A model generated the notes under the pieces. The model searched no databases and was not told the origin of the DNA. It saw only the letters and a list, made by a program, of their open reading frames with translations. From Tubiluchus corallicola (lineage: Eukaryota; Animalia; Priapulida), in the NCBI GenBank assembly GCA_030141605.1, contig JAQGDQ010001321.1, forward strand, positions 1 to 47,460: a DNA stretch of 47,460 nucleotides, given 5' to 3'. The position numbers were made by a program, and so were the translations under genes. Shown here piece by piece: positions 4,410 to 47,460 of this stretch (its first letter is position 1; every line of letters starts with the position of its first letter).

Positions 4410-4920
4410 TTAAAAAAAACATTTAATGACTCGTTTTGAATATCCGACATACGAACACGATGATACTCACTCAAATCATAATTTCATTTTTCCTAAACCT
4501 TACTAAACTAGTTTATATTTTACTTGTTGAATTTCTAGTTGCACTTATAGTTTACCTTGCACCAGACGCATTTGCCCAGAACAGTGTATGTTTTTTATAT
4601 GAACTAACATTGATTGTCTGTCTTTTAATATGATGGTCAATGTAAAATGGCAAATAAAGATTTTACTACTACTACTATGCGTTTAATTCGGCAAACGAAA
4701 ATATTTAGAGCTTCCATTAGACTTCAATATTGCATAAATTTATAAACAACGTAACGCTCTATTAAGATTAGGCAACAGCTGTTTATAACACAAGACATTT
4801 TTGATATGCTGTTATGTATACGCTATTGCAGTTCCTTAACAATTCTATACGAAAACGACTCTAGACAAGAGAATTAGAGGAAGCAAAAACAAAAGCAATA
4901 ATAGATCTTTGCTTTCATAC

Positions 4921-14759: not shown

Positions 14760-15375
14760 CTTATCGCAGGACGATCAAAGCGTGGCAGGAATTGATGACA
14801 GTAATCGAGAACAATATGGGGAATCTTGAGAACGGGTGTATCGATACGGGAAATCTTGAGACGGATATTGATGGCTTATTAGCTGGTCGATCAAGGCGGA
14901 GGTCGAAGCATTCTTGCATAATATGGGGAATCTTGGGAGCTGGTATTGATGGCATATTTGCTGGTTGATGAAGGCAGAGGTCGAAGTATTCTCGCAACAA
15001 TATGGGGAATCTTAAGAATGGGTATTAATGGCTTATGAATCTAGCTGGTTGATAAAGGTGAAGGTTGAAGGATTTTTGCAGTAATATGGGACATCTTGAA
15101 AATGGGTATTGATGGTTTATGAGCCTACCTGGTTAATTAAGTTGGAGATTTAAGCATTCTTGCAGTAATATGGGATATCTTGAACACTAGTATTGACGGC
15201 TTGTTAGCTGGTTAATCAAACCAGAGATTAAAGCATTCTTGAAGTAATGTGGGAAATCTTGAAAATGAGCATTGATGAATTATTAGCCGGCAAATGAATC
15301 TAGAGGTTGAAGTACTCTCGCAGTAATATGGGGAATCTTAAATACTGGTATTGGTGGCTTATTAGCTGGTTGAAG
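14760..15375. repeat. Diverged ~85-bp tandem repeat, ~7 copies
   Basis: Recurring gcagtaatatggggaatcttga...ggtattgatggcttattagctggt. Confidence 0.8.
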
Positions 15376-20351: not shown

Positions 20352-20450
20352 TCTCAGTTTAAACATAATTTATGTAGGATTGGATCAGACAATTTGAACA
20401 ACATGATTTAGGATCCTCACCACAACAGACTTTATACACTATTTACAAGA

Positions 20451-22031
20451 ACATTTACAGTAAGAATTGACTATAACTACACAAGCTGACAAGTTTTACT
20501 ACAAGATTACATTAGACATTAGTAACATTTACAGTAAGAATAGACTATAACTACACAAGCTGACAAGTTTTACTACAAGATTACATTTGACATTAGTAAC
20601 ATTTACAGTAAGAATAGACTATAACTACACAAGCTGACAAGTTTTACTACAAAATTACATTAGACATTAGTAACATTTACAGTAAGAATAGACTATAACT
20701 ACACAAGCTGACAAGTTTTACTACAAGATTACATTAGACATTAGTAACATTTACAGTAAGAATAGACTATAACTACACAAGCTGACAAGTTTTACTACAA
20801 GATTACATTAGACATTAGTAACATTTACAGTAAGAATAGACTATAACTACACAAGCTGACAAGTTTTACTACAAGATTGCATTAGACATTAGTAACATTT
20901 ACAGAATAGACTATAACTACACAAGCTGACAAGTTTTACTACAAGATTACATTAGACATTAGTAACATTTACAGTAAGAATAGACTATAACTACACAAGC
21001 TGACAAGTTTTACTACAAGATTACATTAGACATTAGTAACATTTACAGTAAGAATAGACTATAACTACACAAGCTGACAAGTTTTACTACAAGATTACAT
21101 TAGACATTAGTAACATTTACAGTAAGAATAGACTATAACTACACAAGCTGACAAGTTTTACTACAAGATTACATTAGACATTAGTAACATTTACAGTAAG
21201 AATAGACTATAACTACACAAGCTGACAAGTTTTACTACAAGATTACATTAGACATTAGTAACATTTACAGTAAGAATAGACTATAACTACACAAGCTGAC
21301 AAGTTTTACTACAAGATTACATTAGACATTAGTAACATTTACAGTAAGAATAGACTATAACTACACAAGCTGACAAGTTTTACTACAAGATTACATTAGA
21401 CATTAGTAACATTTACAGTAAGAATAGACTATAACTACACAAGCTGACAAGTTTTACTACAAGATTACATTAGACATTAGTAACATTTACAGTAAGAATA
21501 GACTATAACTACACAAGCTGACAAGTTTTACTACAAGATTACATTAGACATTAGTAACATTTACAGTAAGAATAGACTATAACTACACAAGCTGACAAGT
21601 TTTACTACAAGATTACATTAGACATTAGTAACATTTACAGTAAGAATAGACTATAACTACACAAGCTGACAAGTTTTACTACAAGATTACATTAGACATT
21701 AGTAACATTTACAGTAAAAATAGACTATAACTACACAAGCTGACAAGTTTTACTACAAGATTACATTAGACATTAGTAACATTTACAGTAAGAATAGACT
21801 ATAACTACACAAGCTGACAAGTTTTACTACAAGATTACATTAGACATTAGTAACATTTACAGTAAGAATAGACTATAACTACACAAGCTGACAAGTTTTA
21901 CTACAAGATTGCATTAGACATTAGTAACATTTACAGTAAGAATAGACTATAACTACACAAGCTGACAAGTTTTACTACAAGATTACATTAGACATTAGTA
22001 AAATTTACAGTAAAAATAGACTATAACTACA
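20451..22031. repeat. 74-bp satellite, ~21 nearly identical copies
   Basis: Unit acatttacagtaagaatagactataactacacaagctgacaagttttactacaagattacattagacattagta. Confidence 0.95.
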
Positions 22032-22261
22032 CTACTATACTTTAATTTACTGTATCAATTTCTTTTCTACAGGTCTGCTTATTCATTATCTATTTGGCTT
22101 CTGTTAAATACATAATTAGTGCATAATTTACTGTATCAATTTATTTTCTACAGGTCTGCTTATTCATTATCTATTTGGCTTTTTGTAAATACATAATTAG
22201 CGCATAATGTTCTATACTGTGGGCTCTGCCTATATAAACTGGTTGTATGTTTGTAAAAATT

Positions 22262-24619: not shown

Positions 24620-26335
24620 TAATGAAGTCATCCTTAATTACTTCAACAAATGATCTCTAAGTGTTTCTATCATTTTGCTTTTGAATTAACGCAGCAATAT
24701 TAGTGGTGTTAATGTTATTCTTAAAAAAACATGCGCTTTTGTGAGTCTACGAAAGGGCAGTCGAAAAGTAGATGTTCGCAAGTTTGGGGATGACCACATA
24801 AACAAGAATTGTCAGGTATGAATCCTAATCGGAGTAAAAAATGTTTAAAAAATCCTTGTCCATGAATAAAACTTAGAGCAATGGATTCCAACTCTCTATT
24901 TGTAGGTGAAATTGGTAAATTAAAGGGCTTGAGTTGTGGGATTATGCCAAACCATTCATTTCTGTTTTCTAACAAAGTATAAGTATTGAATTGTCTGTGC
25001 CAAAGAGTTTGCTTGAATTTATCCAGATCAGATTTTGTAACAGACCAATTAACTATAGAAAGTTCTTCGTTGTTAATTCGCCCTGCATCTCTAGTAGTAG
25101 CTAAAAATTGCCTTAAATCTCTAGCATAATATTTTACAAAGTGATTATATGACAGATAAAAGTTAGTATTAAATATATACAAAAGTTCTTTCTTAACTAG
25201 ATCATCATTACCATTCTGCAATATTTTACTTTAAATTTCCTCTTTAAATACAGAGGAATGAGAATGGCAACTATTATACAACTGTTTAAAACATTTGTAC
25301 TACCTGTTATACTATACAGTGCCAGTGTTTGGTTAGCTAAAAACATTCATTATTTGATGACTTGTATTATGATGTCCTCAGAACTGCAACGGGTTCATCC
25401 TTTAAACCTTGTAGGGTATTGTTAGAAATTTTATGTGGTTTGCCTCCTTTAGAAATCGAAATGAAAGCTCATAATGTAAGATTCCTAACAATACCCTGCA
25501 AGGTTTAAAGGATGAACCTGTTGCTGTTCTGAGGACATCATAATACAAGTCATCAAATAATGAGTGTTTTAGATAACTAAACACTGGCACTGTATAGTAT
25601 AACAGGTAGTACAAATGTTTTAAAGAGTTGTATAATAGTTGCCATTCTCATTCCTCTGTATTTAAAGCACAGTTGTTTAATTTGTGTCCATTTGTGCCAT
25701 GCATTTTTCCTAACTCTATTGGTATAGCAATCAAATTTCAGATTACTATCAATAGTGATACCCAGTACTGTACTATTTTGAACATATTCAATTTCATTAT
25801 CACCAATTTTTAATTTAGGCAAATCATTATTTACTATATTTTGCGTAGTCCCCATGATCATAACTTCCGTTTTATTCCTATTACAGTTGACTTTCAGCCG
25901 CCATTTTTTACACCATAGATGTAACTTATTACAACAGATTTGCGCAGTATTACGACACTCATCAGAGTTTGTTTTAGATGCGTAAAATGTGCCATCGTCT
26001 GCGCATTTCAAGACGTCTGCCATTTTATTGGATCTTACATCATTTAGCATTTCTGAGATGAAGATTATGAATAATAGAGGTGAAAGGACAGAGCCTTGAG
26101 GGAGGCCAATATTACTGTTATACAACTGAGAACAGAAATTTCCTACACTGATAGAAAATGATCGACTCAACAAATAATTTTTGATTGTAGCCAAAAACTT
26201 TCCAGCAATTCCTAATTGATAGAGTTTGAAGATTAGGCCTTTGATCCACACACTGTCAAAGGCCTTTTCAAAATCACAAAAGACAGCGATGGCGGGATGT
26301 TTCTTTATATGGTCGCTTTGCATTTTACTAATTAG
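24620..26335 (-). mobile_element. 5'-truncated, rearranged non-LTR retrotransposon (LINE, I/Jockey-group-like) ORF2 remnant
   Basis: RT motifs AVFCDFEKAFDSVW, GLPQGSVLSPLLF, CADD and LGITIDSNLKF. C-terminal CCHC finger CLCGHPQTCEHLLFDC. Premature stop at 25577 and an internal inverted duplication. Confidence 0.9.
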
Positions 26336-26406
26336 GCGAAACAGATATGGTTCAGTACTATGTCCTGCGACAAAGAATAGAAAAGAGTGAATAGATAAAG
26401 AAAGTA

Positions 26407-26845
<439 letters not shown>

Positions 26846-27308
26846 GAGGGGACGAGGAAAAGATAGAACCTGGAAAATGGATTGAACAAGTGAAAGAAGA
26901 AGTATGAATATCCCAGTCAAGAATCTGACGTTATAGTGACGTTACCCGTGACGTTACAGTGACCTCACGCTTGAGGTCATAACGAGATCAAAATCATGAA
27001 CTCAAACATAGCTACACCACGTTTTTAGATCATACTGACCGCATGTCATGACATCATGCTGACCTCAAGTCATGAGTGAAGTTGACTTTTGAGGGAAAAA
27101 ACTTTCTGCTGGAGAATTTTGTAGATAAGAGGCCCGTATGATTTATAAACAGCAGTTCTGCATCTAGAACTGTTCAGGTAAACCTATGAATCAGCAGAAA
27201 AAGGGCGTAGACAAAGAACAATTTATTTTTTTATTCACACCCAATAGTAAAATACAGAATACAATAAAAACAATATATATAAAACACGTAGGCAAAAAAA
27301 CATACAGG

Positions 27309-28140
27309 ACACAAAGAGATGTCCTGCTTACACGTGCCTATTGTGTACAAGGAATTTATGTAAGTTAACTTTACACAAAGAGATTAACTGCTCACATGTG
27401 TCTATTGTGTACAAGGAATTTATGTAAGTTAACTTTACACAAAGAGATTAACTGCTCACATGTGTCTATTGTGTACAAGGAATTTATGTAAGTTAACTTT
27501 ACACAAAGAGATTAACTGCTCACATGTGTCTATTGTGTACAAGGAATTTATGTAAGTTAACTTTACACAAAGAGATTAACTGCTTACATGTGTCTATTGT
27601 GTACAAGGAATTTATGTAAGTTGACTTTACACAAAGAGATTAACTGCTCACATGTGTCTATTGTGTACAAGGAATTTATGCAAGTTAACTTTACACAAAA
27701 AGATGTCCTGCTCACATGTGTCTATTGTGTACAAGGAATTTATGCAAGTTAACTTTACACAAAGAGATTAACTGCTCACATGTGTCTATTGTGTACAAGG
27801 AATTTATGTAAGTTAACTTTACACAAAGAGATTAACTGCTCACATGTGTCTATTGTGTACAAGGAATTTATGTAAGTTAACTTTACACAAAGAGATTAAC
27901 TGCTCACATGTGTCTATTGTGTACAAGGAATTTATGCAAGTTAACTTTGCACAAAGAGATTAACTGCTCACATGTGTCTATTGTGTACAAGGAATTTATG
28001 TAAGTTAACTTTACACAAAGAGATTACCTGCTCACATGTGTCTATTGTGTACAAGGAATTTATGTAAGTTAACTTTACACAAAGAGATTAACTGCTCACA
28101 TGTGTCTATTGTGTACAAGGAATTTATGTAAGTTAACTTT
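27309..28140. repeat. 64-bp minisatellite, ~13 copies
   Basis: Unit acacaaagagattaactgctcacatgtgtctattgtgtacaaggaatttatgtaagttaacttt. Confidence 0.95.
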
Positions 28141-29654
28141 ATATAACCGGCTTTTAAATAACTCAGTATTTCGTGCAGTTACGAGGGGTGCACCATGAAC
28201 ATATGCAGGCAATGAGTTCCAAATCAGTGCAACTTGATTTGAGAAAAAATGACCAAATGATACAAGCTGGTTTTGGTTTTGGATACCGGTATAGGGCAGT
28301 GTAGGGTTACTGAAGGAAACCTAAATATTCCTTGGGCCTAATGTGAAACTTTACCAACGATCAATTTCGACAACCCGGATTCCAGCAGTCATTACCGTAT
28401 TAACATTCAAAACCAGGCACCCCGTCGTTCTCTCCCGCCCTGTTGCGTTCCATCACTCCATCTATCTCTTCGGCGAGCCCTCCTCACACGCGGGACGCGT
28501 CTAATTTACTCCTCGCGTAAACAAGTTCTCCTCGGGAAATCTTTGTTTGTTTACTCGCTGTTGCTTCAACGCAGAGTTATTTGCACGGTGTTGTTTCAAC
28601 GTGCAGCACTACGCGCGAGGATCAGCAACTTACAAGCGTATCGTGTTACGAGCGGTGGGTTTGTGCTGCAATCGAAACCAAATGGATAGGAGGTGCCGTC
28701 GATCAGCGTTCGCAATCAGCGCCTCTTTCCGGAGATATCAACTAATTAGAAGAGCTGTCGTTGTTTAGTCGGAGTACATCCGGTCATACGTCCGGTCACT
28801 GCGCGGTGATAATTGCCGGACATGCGGGAGTTCTTGCAGGAATTGTGCGCATGCGTCTTTGGACATTAATCTATTTCTATGACTTCTAATAAAAAAGATC
28901 GAATTGTGATTTATTATGGCTGTTCATTTTCACAGTTGCATAAACTTGAGTTGTAGATGTATCATCTTTTCATTTATTTATATATTTTTTTGTCTTTGCA
29001 TTTTTTATTAGCTTATTCAATCGTTCCTTTATTCATTCATTTGATTATTTGTTTAGTTGTTTATTGGGCATGATTTTTTTCTTTATTTGTTTGTTTATTT
29101 GTCAGCTATATTTCTATAAATATTAAAACTTTTCATCTATTATTTGTTTTGTGTGTGTTTCTTTGTAGTCATTTATTTATGTTGTACATTTAATAATTTG
29201 TTTGTTACTTTGTTTGTTACAGTTTATTTTCGTTTGTTTATTCATATTTGCATTTGTTTGCTTATTTGTGTATCTAAAATCACCACTCATGTTTTGATCT
29301 ATATTTGTTTACAAACTGTAGTTTTCTTATAGTTCTTTCAGTAAATCAGTTCATGGATAAAGGATAATCAATCTAATGGATGAAAAAATAAAAAATGTAG
29401 GTAATTGAACGAAATAATGAATGAACGAGGGAGCGAATGATTAAGTGAACGGATGAATAAAGAACGAAGAAATGGTAGAATAGATGCATGGATGGATAGA
29501 CGAAAAAATGGATAAACGAAGTAAAGAAATGGATGGATAGATGGATGAACAAATAGAGATGCATAAGGAAAGAAAGAATGTAAGGAATAAGGATAGTTGA
29601 ATGAATGTAAGAATGGAAAAAATGAATGAGTGAATGAAGGTGTAATAATTAATG

Positions 29655-30053: not shown

Positions 30054-30485
<432 letters not shown>

Positions 30486-40955: not shown

Positions 40956-41360
40956 CAGGGGTGTGCAAATTAACTGACTAGCAGGGCCACATTAAACATT
41001 CCCGCATTTCCTGTGGGCCACATGCAGTTTGGTCAAGGAGCCAAGTATAGTAGGACCTAATAACGATTTTTTTTTTGCATCCGATTTGCGCACATCATCA
41101 CTACTGCACTACTACACTCCAGAAACTATTTTAGAAATTATTAAAATTTATATCAAAAACCATATATTTCGTCATGTCCGACAGTGACATTAAGTGACAA
41201 TGGTCTTGTAAGGGTTAATGCCATCCGATCTAGAGGAAAAAACTACCCGCACTATCTTTGCAATATTGGCACAGACATCAGCTGGATCGCGTGGGCCGCA
41301 CGTTGACAAACCTCTTTGCGGGCCGCAAGTGGCCCATGCGCTGCAGTTTGCACACCCCTG
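40956..41360. mobile_element. hAT (Charlie-like) MITE
   Basis: TIR CAGGGGTGTGCAAA / TTTGCACACCCCTG, 8-bp TSD GTTTAAAC / TTTTAAAC, and GGGCCGC/GGGCCAC subterminal motifs. Confidence 0.85.
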
Positions 41361-42108
41361 TTTTAAACGTTTAACCGACAGCTAACTGGTGTAACCATTT
41401 GCAAAATCACTAACCGTTTAGCGATTACTTTAGCCAAATTTCCTACGCATCCGTTTTAGTGAAACCTTGCGTCTTTTCTGAGTCGGCAATGCCCGGCCCA
41501 CATAAACCTGAACTATTTACAACACTGTTTCAATTAATCTTCTAGCCTAAGAAGCATCTAAATGGTAAATAGCAAATGGTCAATAGCAATAGCAACAGAC
41601 AGTGTATAGCACCATGCTGGACATTTGCACTGGCCAATGGCAGATTTGAACTGTGCACGGTTTACTCCTGCAAGGAAAGAATTTGCACACATGGTGATTC
41701 CACGATGTGTAAGTAAACATGGCGTGATTCAGAGGGGGTAACTGCGTCGCAGGTACTTCTGGGATTTTGTGCTTCCAAAACTTCTTCAAACATTCAAAAG
41801 GGTTCATGAGTTATTCACGTGCTGGGAAATACTAAGTTGAGAGAATTTCTATGACGAGTTGGGCAATTTCTTCATAATAGTTCATCGTGTGTATTCGATA
41901 TTTTGTTACATGCATGACGTCATCGGGAACGGTTAACCGACCGCAATCAATAACGTTTACACGGTTAGTTAAAAAGCCTAGCTGTCTCAGCCCTAATTCC
42001 TTCATCAATTTTCTAAAATCTGCCAAGACTTACGAGGTGGAGACTTGCAAAATTTCTTACGTGGAACTGTTTGAAATGTGTACCAAGCGTAGAATGTGAT
42101 TTTATGGC

Positions 42109-42404
42109 GTAGTACTCAATTTCATGTAGTATTTAGGCTCATGTTGTACTCAGTTTCATGTAATACCCAGTCTCGTGTAGTACTCAGTTTCATGTAATAC
42201 TCAGTCTCGTGTAGCATTCAGTCTCGTGTAGTACTCAGTTTAATGTAGTACTCAGTTTCATGTAATACTCAGCCTCGTGTAATACTCAGTTTCATGTAGT
42301 ACTCAATTTTATGTAGTACTCAGTTTTATGTAGTACTCAGTTTCGTGTAATACTCAGTCTCGCGTAGTACTCAGTTTTATGTAGTACTCAGTTTCATGTA
42401 GTAC
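42109..42404. repeat. ~19-bp minisatellite
   Basis: gtagtactcagtttcat variants. Confidence 0.88.
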
Positions 42405-42941: not shown

Positions 42942-43452
42942 ACAGGTGAAACCTAGCCGTCAAAACATTCGCACAGGTGAAACCTAGCCGCCAAAACATT
43001 CGCACAGGTGAAACCTAGCCACCAAAACATTTGCACAGGTGAAACCTAGCCACCAAAACATTCGCACAGGTGAAACCTAGCCACCAAAACATTCGCACAG
43101 GTGAAACCTATCCACCAAAACATTCGCACAGGTGAAACCTATCCACCAAAACATTCGCACAGGTGAAACCTATCCACCAAAACATTCGCACAGGTGAAAC
43201 CTATCCACCAAAACATTCGCACAGGTGAAACCTAGCCACCAAAACATTTGCACAGGTGAAACCTAGCCACCAAAACATTCGCACAGGTTCCACCAAAACA
43301 TTCGCACAGGTGAAACCTATCCACCAAAACATTCGCACAGGTGAAACCTGTCCACCAAAACATTCGCACAGGTGAAACCTAGCCACCAAAACATTCGCAC
43401 AGGCGAAACCTAGCCGCCAAAACATTCGCACAGGTAAAACCTCGCCACCAAT
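42942..43452. repeat. 31-bp minisatellite, ~16 copies, just downstream of the LARP6 stop
   Basis: Unit acaggtgaaacctagccaccaaaacattcgc. Confidence 0.95.
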
Positions 43453-43667
43453 AGCTGTACAACAAAATTAACTCAGCAACTCAGGGGGTGGTCAGTCAGT
43501 CAGTCACACATAGCTGAAACTAAAACAAACAAAAACATTTGAGGTCAGATGAAATAAATTGTTGAATATGTACAGCTTCCTTTGAGATGCGATTAAGCAG
43601 GACTTGTAAAACCGAGGTATTGACAGGACAAGTGGATATAATACCCAATAAAAATCTCAAGGAACGT

Positions 43668-44914
43668 TCAAGCAAAAGTTTTGCTTCGCGGCTTTCCTCT
43701 GCCAGTGCCGCCGTAGAATCCGGGCGATCCGTCCGGACCTTTGGGCTGCCGAATAACTCCCTCCATGTCACCGACTTGTCGACGCCCGGCTCTTGGACTA
43801 TTGCTCAATGAGCTCATCGTTGAGGAACCTCCGGGACTGTTGGCTGCCGCTAGGCGACGACGCTGTACCCAAGGACTAGAAGGAGAAGAAGAAGGTTGAG
43901 GATCGCCATTGTCCTTCCTCTTAGAATGCGGACTGCCCTTCGGGCTGCACTTTGCCGACGACTCCGGAGATGACCGGCGTCCGCCGCCGCCCGTCTGCAC
44001 CCGAAGGCGGTTGCTCAGACCAGGATCCAGAGAGTTCCACGTGTGGCTTCGAGGTCGTGTCTCAAATCTGAGACTGTCAAATGCCTGAGGTTTCCTCGTG
44101 GGATTTGGTGGAGAAGTGGACAAATCCGTTTTTGAACTAACGCCAGTCACGGCGCCGTCCGATTGCGCTCCGTCTTCGCTACTGCCCTTACTCGGCACGC
44201 GCTTCCTGCGGCGACGCTTCTTCTTCTGCTGGTCACCTCCACCTTCCTTCTTACCGATGTCCTTGGCTACATTTTTGTCCTTTCCCTTTCCCGCCTTGTC
44301 TTTTTTCTTAGCGGCCGCCAGCTTCGCAACCCTCATCCCACTTCTCCAGTCGGTTTTGTCGTTCATCAGTTGAACCGCCTTCTCCGCGTACTCGGACTTC
44401 TCAAACTCCACCAGTGCACACGTGGTGACGCCTATCTCCGGATGAGCGTTCACGTGCGGTTTCACGTCGGACGGTACGGCCTTTCCGGGTCGCAATATCC
44501 GGACCAGGACGATTTCGCCGCACTTAGAAAACAACTGACTCACCATCTCTATACTCGGTACTTCGCACGGCAGGTTTATCGCCACGACGGTACGAGACGG
44601 AGTCGTTTCGTCCACCTCCGGTAGCGGATCTTTACGTTTCACTTTGGTCCCCTCTTCATTGACGTGCAATTTTTCTGACTTCCGTAAACTGTGGGCGACC
44701 GTCCGGTAGTCTTTCGCCAGGCTCTTCATCTTCTTAAATGATGTTATCAACTTGATGCTGACGTATCCTTCGCGATTTTTACGAACGTGTTTCAACAGGA
44801 ACGTGTCTTTGGTTATATTAGCATCAGAGAAGTAGAACTCAGCTTGTTTTATTATCTTTTCCTGCACGTCTGCGGAAGGCGGTTGCCAGTCTCCGCTGCC
44901 TTCGCTCACACCAC
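43668..44914 (-). CDS. LARP6: La-related protein 6 (Acheron), large last coding exon; upstream exon(s) not identified
   Basis: La motif (WQPP..KIIKQAEFYFSDANITKDTFLLKHVRKNREGYVSIKLITSFKKMK), RRM (PSRTVVAINLP..CALVEFE), basic NLS KKKRRRRK, SPWVQRR and C-terminal LSA/SUZ-C motif VIRQPKGPDGSPGF. Preceded by acceptor TTATTTCAG|GT (AG at 44916-44915, phase 1), so the GTG start in the ORF track is not a real start. Stop TGA at 43670-43668. Confidence 0.93.
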
Positions 44915-46505
44915 CTGAAATAATGTATAAAATTACCGGACTTTGTTCACACTATTTGAAATACTGTGTGACACTTACCTGCCTTTGTTCACACCACCTG
45001 AAATAAAGTATAAAATTACACAACTTTGTCACACTACCTGGAATATTGTGTGACACTTACCTGCCTTTGTTTACACCACCTGAAATAACGTATAAAATTT
45101 ACCCAACTCTGTTCATACTACCTGGAATATTGTGTGACATTTACCTGCCTTTGTTCACACCACCTGAAATAACCTATAAAAATTACCCAACTTTGTTCAC
45201 ACTACCTGTAATATTGTGTGACATTTACCTGCCTTTGTTCACACCACCTGAAATAACCTATAAAAACTACCCAACTTTGTTCACACTACCTGGAATATTG
45301 TGTGACATTTATCTGCCTTTGTTCACACCACCTGAAATAATGTATAAAAACTACCCAACTTTGTTCACACTACCTGGAATATTGTGTGACATTTAAATGC
45401 CTTTGTTCACACCACCTGAAATAACGTATAAAATTTACCCAACTCTGTTCACACTACCTGGAATATTGTGTGACATTTACCTGCCTTTGTTCACACCACC
45501 TGAAATAACCTATAAAAATTACCCAACTTTGTTCATACTACCTGGAATATTGTGTGACATTTACCTGCCTTTGTTCACACCACCTGAAATAACCTATAAA
45601 AACTACCCAACTTTGTTCACACTACCTGGAATATTGTGTGACATTTATCTGCCTTTGTTCACACCACCTGAAATAATGTATAAAAATTACACAACTTTGT
45701 TCACACTACCTGGAATATTGTGTGACATTTATCTGCCTTTGTTCACACCACCTGAAATAATGTATAAAAATTACACAACTTTGTTCACACTACCTGGAAT
45801 ATTGTGTGACATTTACCTGCCTTTGTTCACACCACCTGAAATAACCTATAAAAACTACCCAACTTTGTTCACACTACCTGGAATATTGTGTGACATTTAT
45901 CTGCCTTTGTTCACACCACCTGAAATAACGTATAAAAATTACCCAACTTTGTTCACACTACCTGGAATATTGTGTGACATTTACCTGCCTTTGTTCACAC
46001 CACCTGAAATAACCTATAAAAACTACCCAACTTTGTTCACACTACCTGGAATATTGTGTGACATTTATCTGCCTTTGTTCACACCACCTGAAATAACGTA
46101 TAAAAATTACCCAACTTTGTTCACACTACCTGGAATATTGTGTGACATTTACCTGCCTTTGTTCACACCACCTGAAATAACCTATAAAAACTACCCAACT
46201 TTGTTCACACTACCTGGAATATTGTGTGACATTTACCTGCCTTTGTTCACACCACCTGAAATAACCTATAAAAATTACCCAACTTTGTTCACACTATTTG
46301 AAATACTGTGTGACATTTACCTGCCTTTGTTCACACCACCTGAAATAACCTATAAAAACTACCCAACTTTGTTCACACTACCTGGAATATTGTGTGACAT
46401 TTATCTGCCTTTGTTCACACCACCTGAAATAACGTATAAAATTAGCCGACTTTGTTCATTACCCAGCTTTGTTCACACTACCTGAAACATTGTGTGACAT
46501 TTATT
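44907..46505. repeat. 84-bp minisatellite (two 42-bp subunits), ~19 copies, overlapping the LARP6 splice acceptor
   Basis: Unit ccacctgaaataacctataaaaactacccaactttgttcaca + ctacctggaatattgtgtgacatttacctgcctttgttcaca. Gives the 28-aa periodicity of the spurious + strand ORFs. Confidence 0.95.
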
Positions 46506-47343
46506 TGCTTACGGACGTGTCGCCGTAAACACCCAAAATCAGCATGGCAATTGAAACTGTCCTTGACAGGTATTGAACCCGTCGATATAATCCATCAATC
46601 TTAACATCAATATCTTATATTTTTTATCTTTGTTATAGCACTTAACGCTTACTTGCTCTAAAGCACTTATATTAGCCTTACTATTCAGGGATGGCACACA
46701 ACATGACCATATGGTCTTTCAAAATTTTGTTGGCTATTATTATGTATTATGTATTTAAGCTGGCAATAAAAAAAATCTGTTTCAGTCTCGTCGTCCCAGG
46801 TAATTTTTTTATCGCACAGCCGGCGGAGAACTTTACAACTTTTTCCTACATTAATAAACTTACCCGACGCAACCATATTTTTTTATTCAAAATGTAAAAC
46901 AATAATTATTATAACTTCGTCGTTTCGGGGACAACACAGCCATGTTTTTCTATGGCTAACTCTTTGCCAGGATTGCCGTTTCGTATTGGAGGCTAATAAG
47001 TATCGTGTCTTCCGCCAACTTGCTGTACTAGCAGCAGAGCTGTGTAGTCATTTATATAACAGTTCAGAGCATACAAAAAGAGACTTCAGAATAATAGAGA
47101 ATTTAGTAATGCAAAATAAAAACCTAGAAAATGAAAAATAAAAAATGTGCGTTGAAAAAATTTAAAACGTTGCTGCTAACCAGGGTGAAGTAAACAAACT
47201 TTCCATTGTCAACTGATTTTAAACATTCCAAGATTCAGCTTTAAACATTCACAAAGCTTTAAAATAATTATTTGAAAAAAAAAATTTCCTCCCTACACAC
47301 GAGGTAAGACGAAGACAATTTTTTCTGCGGCTGACCTTTAAAC

Positions 47344-47460
47344 CAGGGGTGTGCAAACTGCGGCCCGCCGAGATACCTTGTGTGGCCCACGAAGAGGTTT
47401 GTCAACCTAATGAAAGTGCGGCCCATGAGATCCAGCTGAAGTCTGTGCCAATATCGCAAA
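47344..47460. mobile_element. Related hAT (Charlie-like) MITE, runs off the window
   Basis: CTTTAAAC-CAGGGGTGTGCAAACTGCGGCCC; reverse-complement similarity to 41265-41360. Confidence 0.8.

What the first reader, a model, noticed from the sequence alone, without database searches (positions are those of the whole stretch)
44896..46505. Minisatellite made of the LARP6 splice acceptor: ~38 tandem 'micro-exon + GT..AG' cassettes upstream of the real exon
Seen: on the gene strand each 84-bp unit reads GTGGTGTGAACAAAGGCAG|GTAAATGTCACACAATATTCCAG|GTAGTGTGAACAAAGTTGG|GTAGTTTTTATAGGTTATTTCAG, i.e. two 42-bp subunits of 19 nt plus a 23-nt GT..AG block. The real exon starts TTTCAG|GTGGTGTGAGCGAAGGCAG, 17/19 identical to the repeat block, so the array and the functional junction are homologous. 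The two copies nearest the exon carry a consensus donor CAG|GTAAGT (~44982-44974, ~45063-45055). Every acceptor is an AG|GT, the recursive-splicing configuration. Reading through from an upstream TTTCAG decoy gives GGT GTG AAC AAA GGC AGG TAA, an immediate stop. One 19-nt micro-exon would shift the frame and three would restore it. Inference: either a neutral expansion that the spliceosome must traverse (possibly by recursive splicing), or a copy-number-tunable poison-exon/NMD device on an RNA-binding protein gene. The 23-nt blocks are too short to be normal animal introns.
Basis: partly seen in the sequence, partly recalled or inferred. Interest (0 to 1): 0.8.

Follow-up and report, generated by a model that had tools for sequence, protein, structure and literature searches.

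The report
Splice-acceptor "mirage" repeat in LARP6
A 1.6-kb tandem repeat, likely in a priapulid worm, has copied the predicted intron-exon boundary of the RNA-binding gene LARP6 into 35 spare splice acceptors that are likely ignored, which makes it a new example of a repeat type already described in lancelets, not a new control device.

Summary
The array is real: 19 units of 84 bp (window 46504-44896, minus strand), each two diverged 42-bp halves copied from 23 bases before and 19 bases after the predicted acceptor of the LARP6 terminal coding exon. The protein groups with Priapulus. This anatomy matches the 'mirage' minisatellites of amphioxus, where normal splicing was reported intact (PMC3087553, PMC3902484); the scan's earlier notes list 8 such arrays in at least 7 other genomes. 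Three micro-exons never restore the frame (0 of 7770 triples). The bases after the AG match a donor at only 6 of 9 positions, and the segments are 42 nt, unlike recursive sites. Every stop would fall in the last coding exon. One oddity remains: the last unit forms a 64-nt block with a perfect donor and no inner acceptor, so a 19-nt frameshifting micro-exon could leak in. The splice junction itself is inferred, not observed, and exon 1 was not located. Verdict: new member of a known kind, likely neutral.

The parts
43668..44914 (-). LARP6 terminal coding exon (2 nt + 414 codons + TGA): La motif, RRM, SUZ-C. No in-frame ATG before the La motif, so an upstream coding exon is required
   Evidence: 35 of 40 listed differences in a related lineage are synonymous
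44915..44936 (-). Predicted functional acceptor block (22 nt, T-rich, ends TTTCAG), phase 1
   Evidence: sequence; the only acceptor whose direct use gives the full frame
44896..46504 (-). Mirage minisatellite: 19 units of 84 bp, each = decayed acceptor block + 19-nt exon copy + intact acceptor block + 19-nt exon copy; the last 19 nt are the real exon start
46482..46504 (-). Lead-in 23-nt block, the distal edge of the array; holds an in-frame ATG directly after a stop
44979..44997 (-). Most proximal 19-nt pseudo-micro-exon: T-rich TTTCAG acceptor before it, perfect CAG|GTAAGT donor after it; inclusion would shift the frame and stop after 30 codons
44915..44978 (-). 64-nt intron-like block (GTAAGT ... 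TTTCAG) whose middle acceptor is mutated to TTTCAA
45061..45079 (-). Second 19-nt block followed by a perfect CAG|GTAAGT donor
46863..46875 (-). Unverified candidate for a first coding exon: ATG, 4 codons + 1 base, then G|GTAAGT in the needed phase
   Evidence: about 5% of shuffled flanks give such a candidate

Best explanation
This is a 'mirage'-type minisatellite: a 42-bp piece spanning the predicted splice acceptor of the LARP6 terminal exon was likely duplicated, then amplified as an 84-bp pair to 19 units, and splicing likely uses only the last, exon-adjacent acceptor. Shown: the array, its homology to the boundary, its two kinds of half-unit, and that only the last acceptor gives the full protein. 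Inferred history: after the first duplication the distal copy lost constraint (its acceptor block decayed, its exon copy drifted) while the proximal copy stayed functional; slippage or unequal exchange then multiplied the pair on the intron side, the only side that selection tolerates. Inferred mechanism of choice: the decoys are followed by only 19 exon bases, so the site next to the full exon and its enhancers wins; rare errors give short dead-end products.
For: Unit = -23..+19 of the boundary; exon start 17/19 identical to one block. The half-unit type that includes the real acceptor keeps on average 10.8 T in 17 positions (19 blocks; real site 10), the other type 5.1 (18 blocks), as expected if only the exon-adjacent copy was under selection after the first duplication. 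Edge units diverge most (20 and 11 alignment differences from the consensus, the first including a 16-nt insertion; inner units 0-5), and rare variants recur in distant units: the turnover pattern described for mirages (PMC3087553 section 16). Only direct splicing gives the full frame: 0 of 666 pairs and 0 of 7770 triples of blocks are open, 1 of 37 singles (an 18-nt variant with a 6/9 donor), and 1 of 1671 acceptor-donor-phase combinations (the same block). The window is rich in minisatellites: 16 arrays cover 15.8% of it, and 4.1% of its bases lie in an end unit of an array, so overlap with a splice site needs no special cause. The exon is under purifying selection (35 of 40 listed differences in run X6 synonymous). 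Amphioxus Adh3, globin, troponin C and PGBD5 mirages are reported not to disturb splicing (PMC3087553, PMC3902484), and copies of a donor in the human F7 VNTR stay silent (PMC1557585 abstract).
Against: Eleven 19-nt blocks have a good acceptor before and a donor of 8/9 or 9/9 after them; a shuffled unit holds such a donor in 5% of trials. The two perfect donors and one of the two lost acceptors sit in the last two units and make a 64-nt intron-like block, about the minimal intron length (about 60 nt, PMC3265369 passage). Several decoy acceptor blocks are as T-rich as the real one, and the most distal holds the array's only CTAAY-type branch motif. Exon 1 was not found, and 12 of 13 homologous loci on contigs over 5 kb have no intron here, so the origin of this intron is open.
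Confidence: 0.72

Rival explanations
1. Leaky or regulated poison micro-exon: the 64-nt last unit is removed as a short intron and the 19-nt block at 44997-44979 is joined in, shifting the frame. A share of LARP6 mRNA would be wasted, perhaps in step with array variants.
For: Perfect donor at 44978, middle acceptor lost at 44956, T-rich acceptor before the block; inclusion stops after 30 codons; PMC3087553 Fig. 7 legend proposes that a mirage unit can be recruited as an exon.
Against: The perfect donor is one base change shared by two neighbouring units, and the lost acceptor also occurs at 46298, far from the exon, so both can be drift. No UGC in the array, against the eMIC micro-exon code (PMC8797185 passage). 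The stop lies in the last coding exon, so junction-dependent NMD would not see it (established knowledge; junction-independent decay in some invertebrates is recalled, not tested).
Confidence: 0.12
2. The array is itself a young intron (Rogers model): an exonic AG|GT piece was duplicated, and splicing runs from the first AG|GT (46482/46481) to the last (44915/44914), with translation starting at the ATG in the lead-in block.
For: The lead-in ATG is in frame with the exon across such a splice; 12 of 13 homologous loci on contigs over 5 kb (9 of 10 without three distant La proteins) are uninterrupted here; the mechanism works in cells (PMC3265369 passages).
Against: A stop lies directly before that ATG, so the protein would have about 31 residues before the EFYF motif; 108 of 116 homologues have 70 or more (median 99). 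The donor would be a 6/9 site. The copied unit carries a textbook TTTCAG acceptor, easier to explain as an acceptor that existed before.
Confidence: 0.07
3. Recursive splicing: the spliceosome ratchets through the AG|GT sites of the array.
For: All 35 AG sites at subunit ends are followed by GT.
Against: Regenerated donors score 6/9; steps would be 42-84 nt, whereas fly recursive segments are nearly all over 1 kb and have strong motifs (PMC6110457); the GT is simply the exon's first two bases.
Confidence: 0.04
4. The array has disabled this gene copy, or is an assembly artefact.
For: No first exon found in the 955-nt flank by similarity. No single contig spans the array in the runs laid.
Against: Intact 414-codon frame with all domains. 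Array-derived pieces occur in runs X1, X2, X4 (one sample, perhaps the source) and in X3 (another study); an X2 contig runs from 44404 to 44960 across the boundary. Units carry ordered, shared variants, unlike an assembly loop.
Confidence: 0.05

Closest known systems
Amphioxus 'mirage' minisatellites (Adh3; globin BflGb6 and BflGb9; troponin C; PGBD5). PMC3087553 (passages and section 16 read), PMC3902484 (passages read); the original Adh3 paper is recalled and was not read
   Same: Tandem unit spans an exon-intron boundary; BflGb6 copies the 3' end of an intron plus the exon start, as here; most but not all units keep AG/GT; inner units homogenised, edge units divergent; unit size in the reported 10-160 bp range.
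   Different: Likely a priapulid rather than a lancelet; two-level structure (42-bp halves, one decayed, amplified as 84 bp); 19 units against 3-7 in the globin and PGBD5 cases; the unit junction also creates a good donor in 11 copies; intact splicing not shown here.
Human F7 intron 7 37-bp VNTR (PMC1557585, abstract read)
   Same: Minisatellite whose end unit spans an exon boundary and multiplies a splice site; only the exon-adjacent site is normally used.
   Different: F7 copies a donor and is explained by 5'-to-3' scanning; here acceptors are copied and the last one must win, which needs a different selection rule.
Intron gain by AG|GT duplication (Rogers model; ATP2A1, PMC3265369, passages read)
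   Same: Tandem duplication with AG|GT at both ends; splicing first-to-last would restore the original sequence.
   Different: There the copied piece is coding on both sides; here the upstream side is closed by a stop and looks like an intron end.
Recursive splice sites of Drosophila (PMC6110457, passages read)
   Same: AG|GT inside an intron.
   Different: Weak regenerated donors, 42-nt spacing, origin by copying an exon start.

Membership tests
Mirage minisatellite | Tandem repeat unit spans an exon-intron boundary | tested here: met
   Unit covers 23 nt before and 19 nt after the predicted acceptor; 17/19 identity to the exon start. The boundary itself is inferred from frame and signal.
Mirage minisatellite | Minisatellite-size unit (10-160 bp in the described cases) | tested here: met
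   42-bp halves, 84-bp period; range from PMC3087553
Mirage minisatellite | Many but not all units keep the splice signal | tested here: met
   36 of 38 blocks end in AG; 2 lost
Mirage minisatellite | Concerted evolution inside, divergent edge units | tested here: met
   Inner units 0-5 differences from consensus, edges 20 and 11
Mirage minisatellite | Length or sequence instability between alleles | tested here: inconclusive
   One low-depth X3 contig shows a block variant absent from the window; array lengths could not be read
Mirage minisatellite | Normal splicing is undisturbed | not testable with these tools
   No junction-spanning transcript was available in the runs offered
Recursive splice site | Strong donor regenerated directly after the AG | tested here: not met
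   6 of 9 consensus matches at all 35 sites
Recursive splice site | Segments over about 1 kb in a very long intron | tested here: not met
   Spacing 42-84 nt against PMC6110457; total intron length unknown
Recursive splice site | Saw-tooth coverage or intermediates in nascent RNA | not testable with these tools
   No nascent RNA data
eMIC/SRRM4-type micro-exon | UGC motif near the 3' splice site and strong CUAAY branch point | tested here: not met
   0 TGC and 1 CTAAY-type motif in 1590 nt; code from PMC8797185
eMIC/SRRM4-type micro-exon | Inclusion keeps an open frame | tested here: not met
   1 of 37 singles, 0 of 666 pairs, 0 of 7770 triples
Poison exon (AS-NMD) | Inclusion creates a premature stop | tested here: met
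   Stop after 6 codons from decoys, after 30 from the +19-nt form
Poison exon (AS-NMD) | Exon junction downstream of the premature stop | tested here: inconclusive
   Stops fall in the exon that holds the normal stop; a 3' UTR intron is not excluded
Poison exon (AS-NMD) | Observed inclusion, NMD sensitivity, conservation across species | not testable with these tools
   No junction reads; the related-lineage runs X5 and X6 do not reach the boundary
Intron gain by AG|GT duplication | Coding sequence on both sides of the duplicated AG|GT | tested here: not met
   In-frame stop directly before the lead-in ATG; N-terminus far shorter than the homologues' median of 99 residues
Intron gain by AG|GT duplication | Orthologues lack the intron | tested here: inconclusive
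   12 of 13 distant loci on contigs over 5 kb uninterrupted; no priapulid genomic locus available

The most novel reading that the evidence does not exclude
The array is a mirage caught becoming gene structure: its last unit now works as a real 64-nt intron (perfect donor gained, inner acceptor lost) behind a 19-nt frameshifting micro-exon, so that array turnover sets how much LARP6 mRNA is productive. It would be a direct example of exon and intron birth from a splice-site repeat, in a gene that is uninterrupted here in most distant relatives checked.
Probability: 0.12. Interest if true: 0.6.

Novelty: new member of a known kind. Interest (0 to 1): 0.2.

Why it matters
As a mirage it adds a likely priapulid example to a class first described in lancelets; a search for priapulid + genome + minisatellite found no paper in the library. 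It is a tidy natural test of 3' splice-site choice: 35 decoy acceptors, some nearly identical to the real one, that must be passed over. If the last unit is spliced as a 64-nt intron, it would show intron and exon birth from such repeats in progress. Otherwise it is an ordinary by-product of a minisatellite-rich genome.

Tried and rejected
No whole genome is held for this window, so no genome-wide count of repeats over splice sites and no search for exon 1 beyond 47460. Run search: no RNA holder listed. Laying runs on 43460-44960: the only RNA-like run (X6, a guess, about 90-92% identical) covers 43917-44333 and 44626-44798 and does not reach the boundary; X5 does not either; this says nothing about splicing. 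Summed contig depth at the boundary is about 16 times the exon's in X1, but the tool states that it is no copy number, so it is not used. No near-identical protein that could show the real N-terminus was found. tblastn of 120 homologues found no N-terminal exon in the window. Metagenome loci gave no priapulid genomic copy and no transcript/genome pair with an intron at this place. The antisense frames of 362 and 129 codons on the + strand are rejected as chance: 60% of shuffled 84-mers give an open frame. No other copy of the unit in the window. Literal removal of 23-nt introns is rejected: below the roughly 60-nt minimum (PMC3265369) and it gives no open frame. No paper on invertebrate LARP6 gene structure was found. 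The NMD search was seen as a listing only and is not used as evidence. Supplementary files were not opened.

Full report
Observation. On the minus strand a tandem array runs from 46504 to 44896. Tandem Repeats Finder reports period 84, 18.7 copies, 94% matches. Cut into pieces it has a lead-in 23-nt block, 37 subunits of about 42 nt, and the first 19 nt of a long exon, 19 units of 84 bp in all. The two halves of a unit share 30 of 42 bases, so the 84-mer is a dimer of an older 42-mer. The exon start matches one 19-nt block at 17 of 19 positions. Of the 37 subunits, 30 have a block starting with GT, 35 end in AG and 28 have both; with the lead-in there are 35 decoy acceptors and one predicted real one.

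The gene. The exon 44914-43668 encodes La, RRM and SUZ-C domains; named hits are LARP6, best Priapulus caudatus at 55%. In a tree of 34 proteins (the window's and 33 of the 120 hits; no other named ecdysozoan included) it joins Priapulus and one unnamed protein with 100/100 support, so the animal is likely a priapulid. The exon holds the normal stop. Its first in-frame ATG lies inside the La motif, and 108 of 116 homologues have 70 or more residues before the EFYF motif against 24 here, so an upstream coding exon joined in phase 1 is needed. It was not found by similarity. In a related lineage (run X6) 35 of the 40 listed differences are synonymous (the tool's lists were cut), so the exon is under purifying selection.

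Is the array real? Array-derived pieces lie at the boundary in runs X1, X2 and X4 (one sample, possibly the source of the window) and in X3 from another study. An X2 contig runs from 44404 to 44960. X3 shares the last unit's private variants and shows, in one low-depth contig, a block variant absent from the window. Units carry ordered variants that recur at distant positions. An assembly artefact is unlikely; the copy number was not checked independently.

History read from the sequence. Each unit is: block 1, exon copy 1, block 2, exon copy 2. Block 2, the type that precedes the real exon, keeps on average 10.8 T in 17 positions before the AG (real site 10); block 1 has 5.1. Exon copy 2 is 17/19 like the exon, copy 1 13/19. 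This is what one expects if a 42-bp piece around the acceptor was duplicated, the exon-adjacent copy stayed in use, the distal copy decayed, and the pair was then amplified. Inner units differ from the consensus at 0-5 positions, the edge units at 20 (including a 16-nt insertion) and 11. The window is full of such arrays: 16 with period 14 or more cover 15.8% of it, and 4.1% of bases lie in an end unit. An array that touches an exon can only grow on the intron side (inference).

Testing the proposed mechanisms. Micro-exons: a 19-nt block entered in phase 0 holds a stop in 11 of 11 distinct sequences, so 0 of 7770 triples and 0 of 666 pairs give an open frame; 1 of 37 singles does, an 18-nt deletion variant with a weak donor. 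Of 1671 acceptor-donor-phase combinations inside the array only that one is open. The array has no TGC and one CTAAY-type motif, against the UGC and CUAAY code of eMIC-dependent exons (PMC8797185, passages). Recursive splicing: the bases after the 35 AG sites match the donor consensus at 6 of 9 positions and steps would be 42-84 nt; fly sites have strong motifs, lie in very long introns and bound segments nearly all over 1 kb (PMC6110457, passages). Poison exon: decoy use stops after 6 codons in 33 of 34 tested cases, but within the last coding exon, where junction-dependent NMD has no downstream mark (established knowledge; junction-independent decay is possible).

What speaks for something more. 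Eleven 19-nt blocks are followed by a good donor (9 at 8/9, 2 at 9/9); a shuffled unit has such a donor 5% of the time. The two perfect donors are in the last two units, and in the last unit the middle acceptor is lost, leaving a 64-nt block from GTAAGT to the real TTTCAG, close to the minimal intron length of about 60 nt (PMC3265369, passages). Splicing it would add 19 nt and stop after 30 codons. Both changes are single substitutions, and the lost acceptor also occurs at 46298, so drift suffices. Second, 12 of 13 homologous loci on contigs over 5 kb (taken as genomic from their length; 9 of 10 without three distant La proteins) run uninterrupted through this place, and the exception has an intron at another position. 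The intron may therefore be lineage-specific. The lead-in block has an in-frame ATG, which allows a Rogers-type reading in which the array is the whole intron, but a stop precedes that ATG and the N-terminus would be far shorter than usual. A different candidate first exon, with ATG and a G|GTAAGT donor in the right phase at 46863, arises in about 5% of shuffled flanks and is only a lead.

Comparison with what is known. I recalled the term 'mirage' and confirmed it in print. PMC3087553 (passages and section 16) describes tandem copies of an intron's 3' end plus the exon start in amphioxus globin BflGb6, units of 10-160 bp, AG/GT in many but not all units, homogenised interiors with divergent edges, and RT-PCR suggesting normal splicing. 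PMC3902484 (passages) adds troponin C and PGBD5. PMC1557585 (abstract) shows silent copies of a donor in the human F7 VNTR. Four structural features of mirages are met here, allele instability is inconclusive, and undisturbed splicing could not be tested. After I had formed this reading, the scan's own notes returned 8 such arrays in at least 7 other genomes, several said to splice only at the last copy (unchecked AI notes, not independent support). Notes on other pieces of this genome also call it likely priapulid.

Verdict. A real array and a new member of a known kind. Best explanation: neutral mirage with use of the last acceptor (0.72). Rivals: leaky poison micro-exon (0.12), array as newborn intron (0.07), disabled copy or artefact (0.05), recursive splicing (0.04). 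Interest 0.2.

Noticed in passing
window 5392-4874 (-): Open frame with FLIDDILG and TPINP motifs ending at an AG|GTATGA donor near 4920; looks like the first exon of an Hhex/Prh homeobox gene (motif assignment recalled). Homeodomain motifs were not found in the window.
   Followed up: partly
window 46875-46863 (-): ATG in a good start context, 4 codons + 1 base, then a G|GTAAGT donor in the phase needed for the LARP6 exon; candidate first exon, seen in about 5% of shuffles.
   Followed up: partly
window 46752-47342: Stretch bounded by TTAA at both ends with loosely similar inverted ends; may be a decayed non-autonomous DNA transposon (pattern recalled; the repeat finder shows only a 13-nt, 77% match).
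   Followed up: partly
window 47334-47460 and 41257-41370: Two 77% similar copies of a dispersed repeat end, in opposite orientation.
   Followed up: no
window 45397-46485 (+) and 45007-45396 (+): Antisense frames of 362 and 129 codons through the array; chance level is 60%.
   Followed up: yes
window 20450-22032, 27309-28141, 42942-43451, 14844-15371: Other minisatellites (74 bp x 21, 64 bp x 13, 31 bp x 17, 79-84 bp x 6); one copy-like piece of the 74-bp unit also lies at 30054-30181. The 31-bp array starts about 220 nt past the LARP6 stop and may lie in its 3' UTR; the nearest poly(A)-like hexamer found is ATTAAA at 42244.
   Followed up: no
window 24721-26941 (-): Broken reverse-transcriptase-like frames (a non-LTR retroelement by appearance), interrupted by AC/AG microsatellites.
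   Followed up: no
L024, L038, L043-L045, L048, L049, L057, L077: LARP6-like genes on long contigs have no intron between the start codon and the La motif, so the intron in the window is not widely shared.
   Followed up: partly
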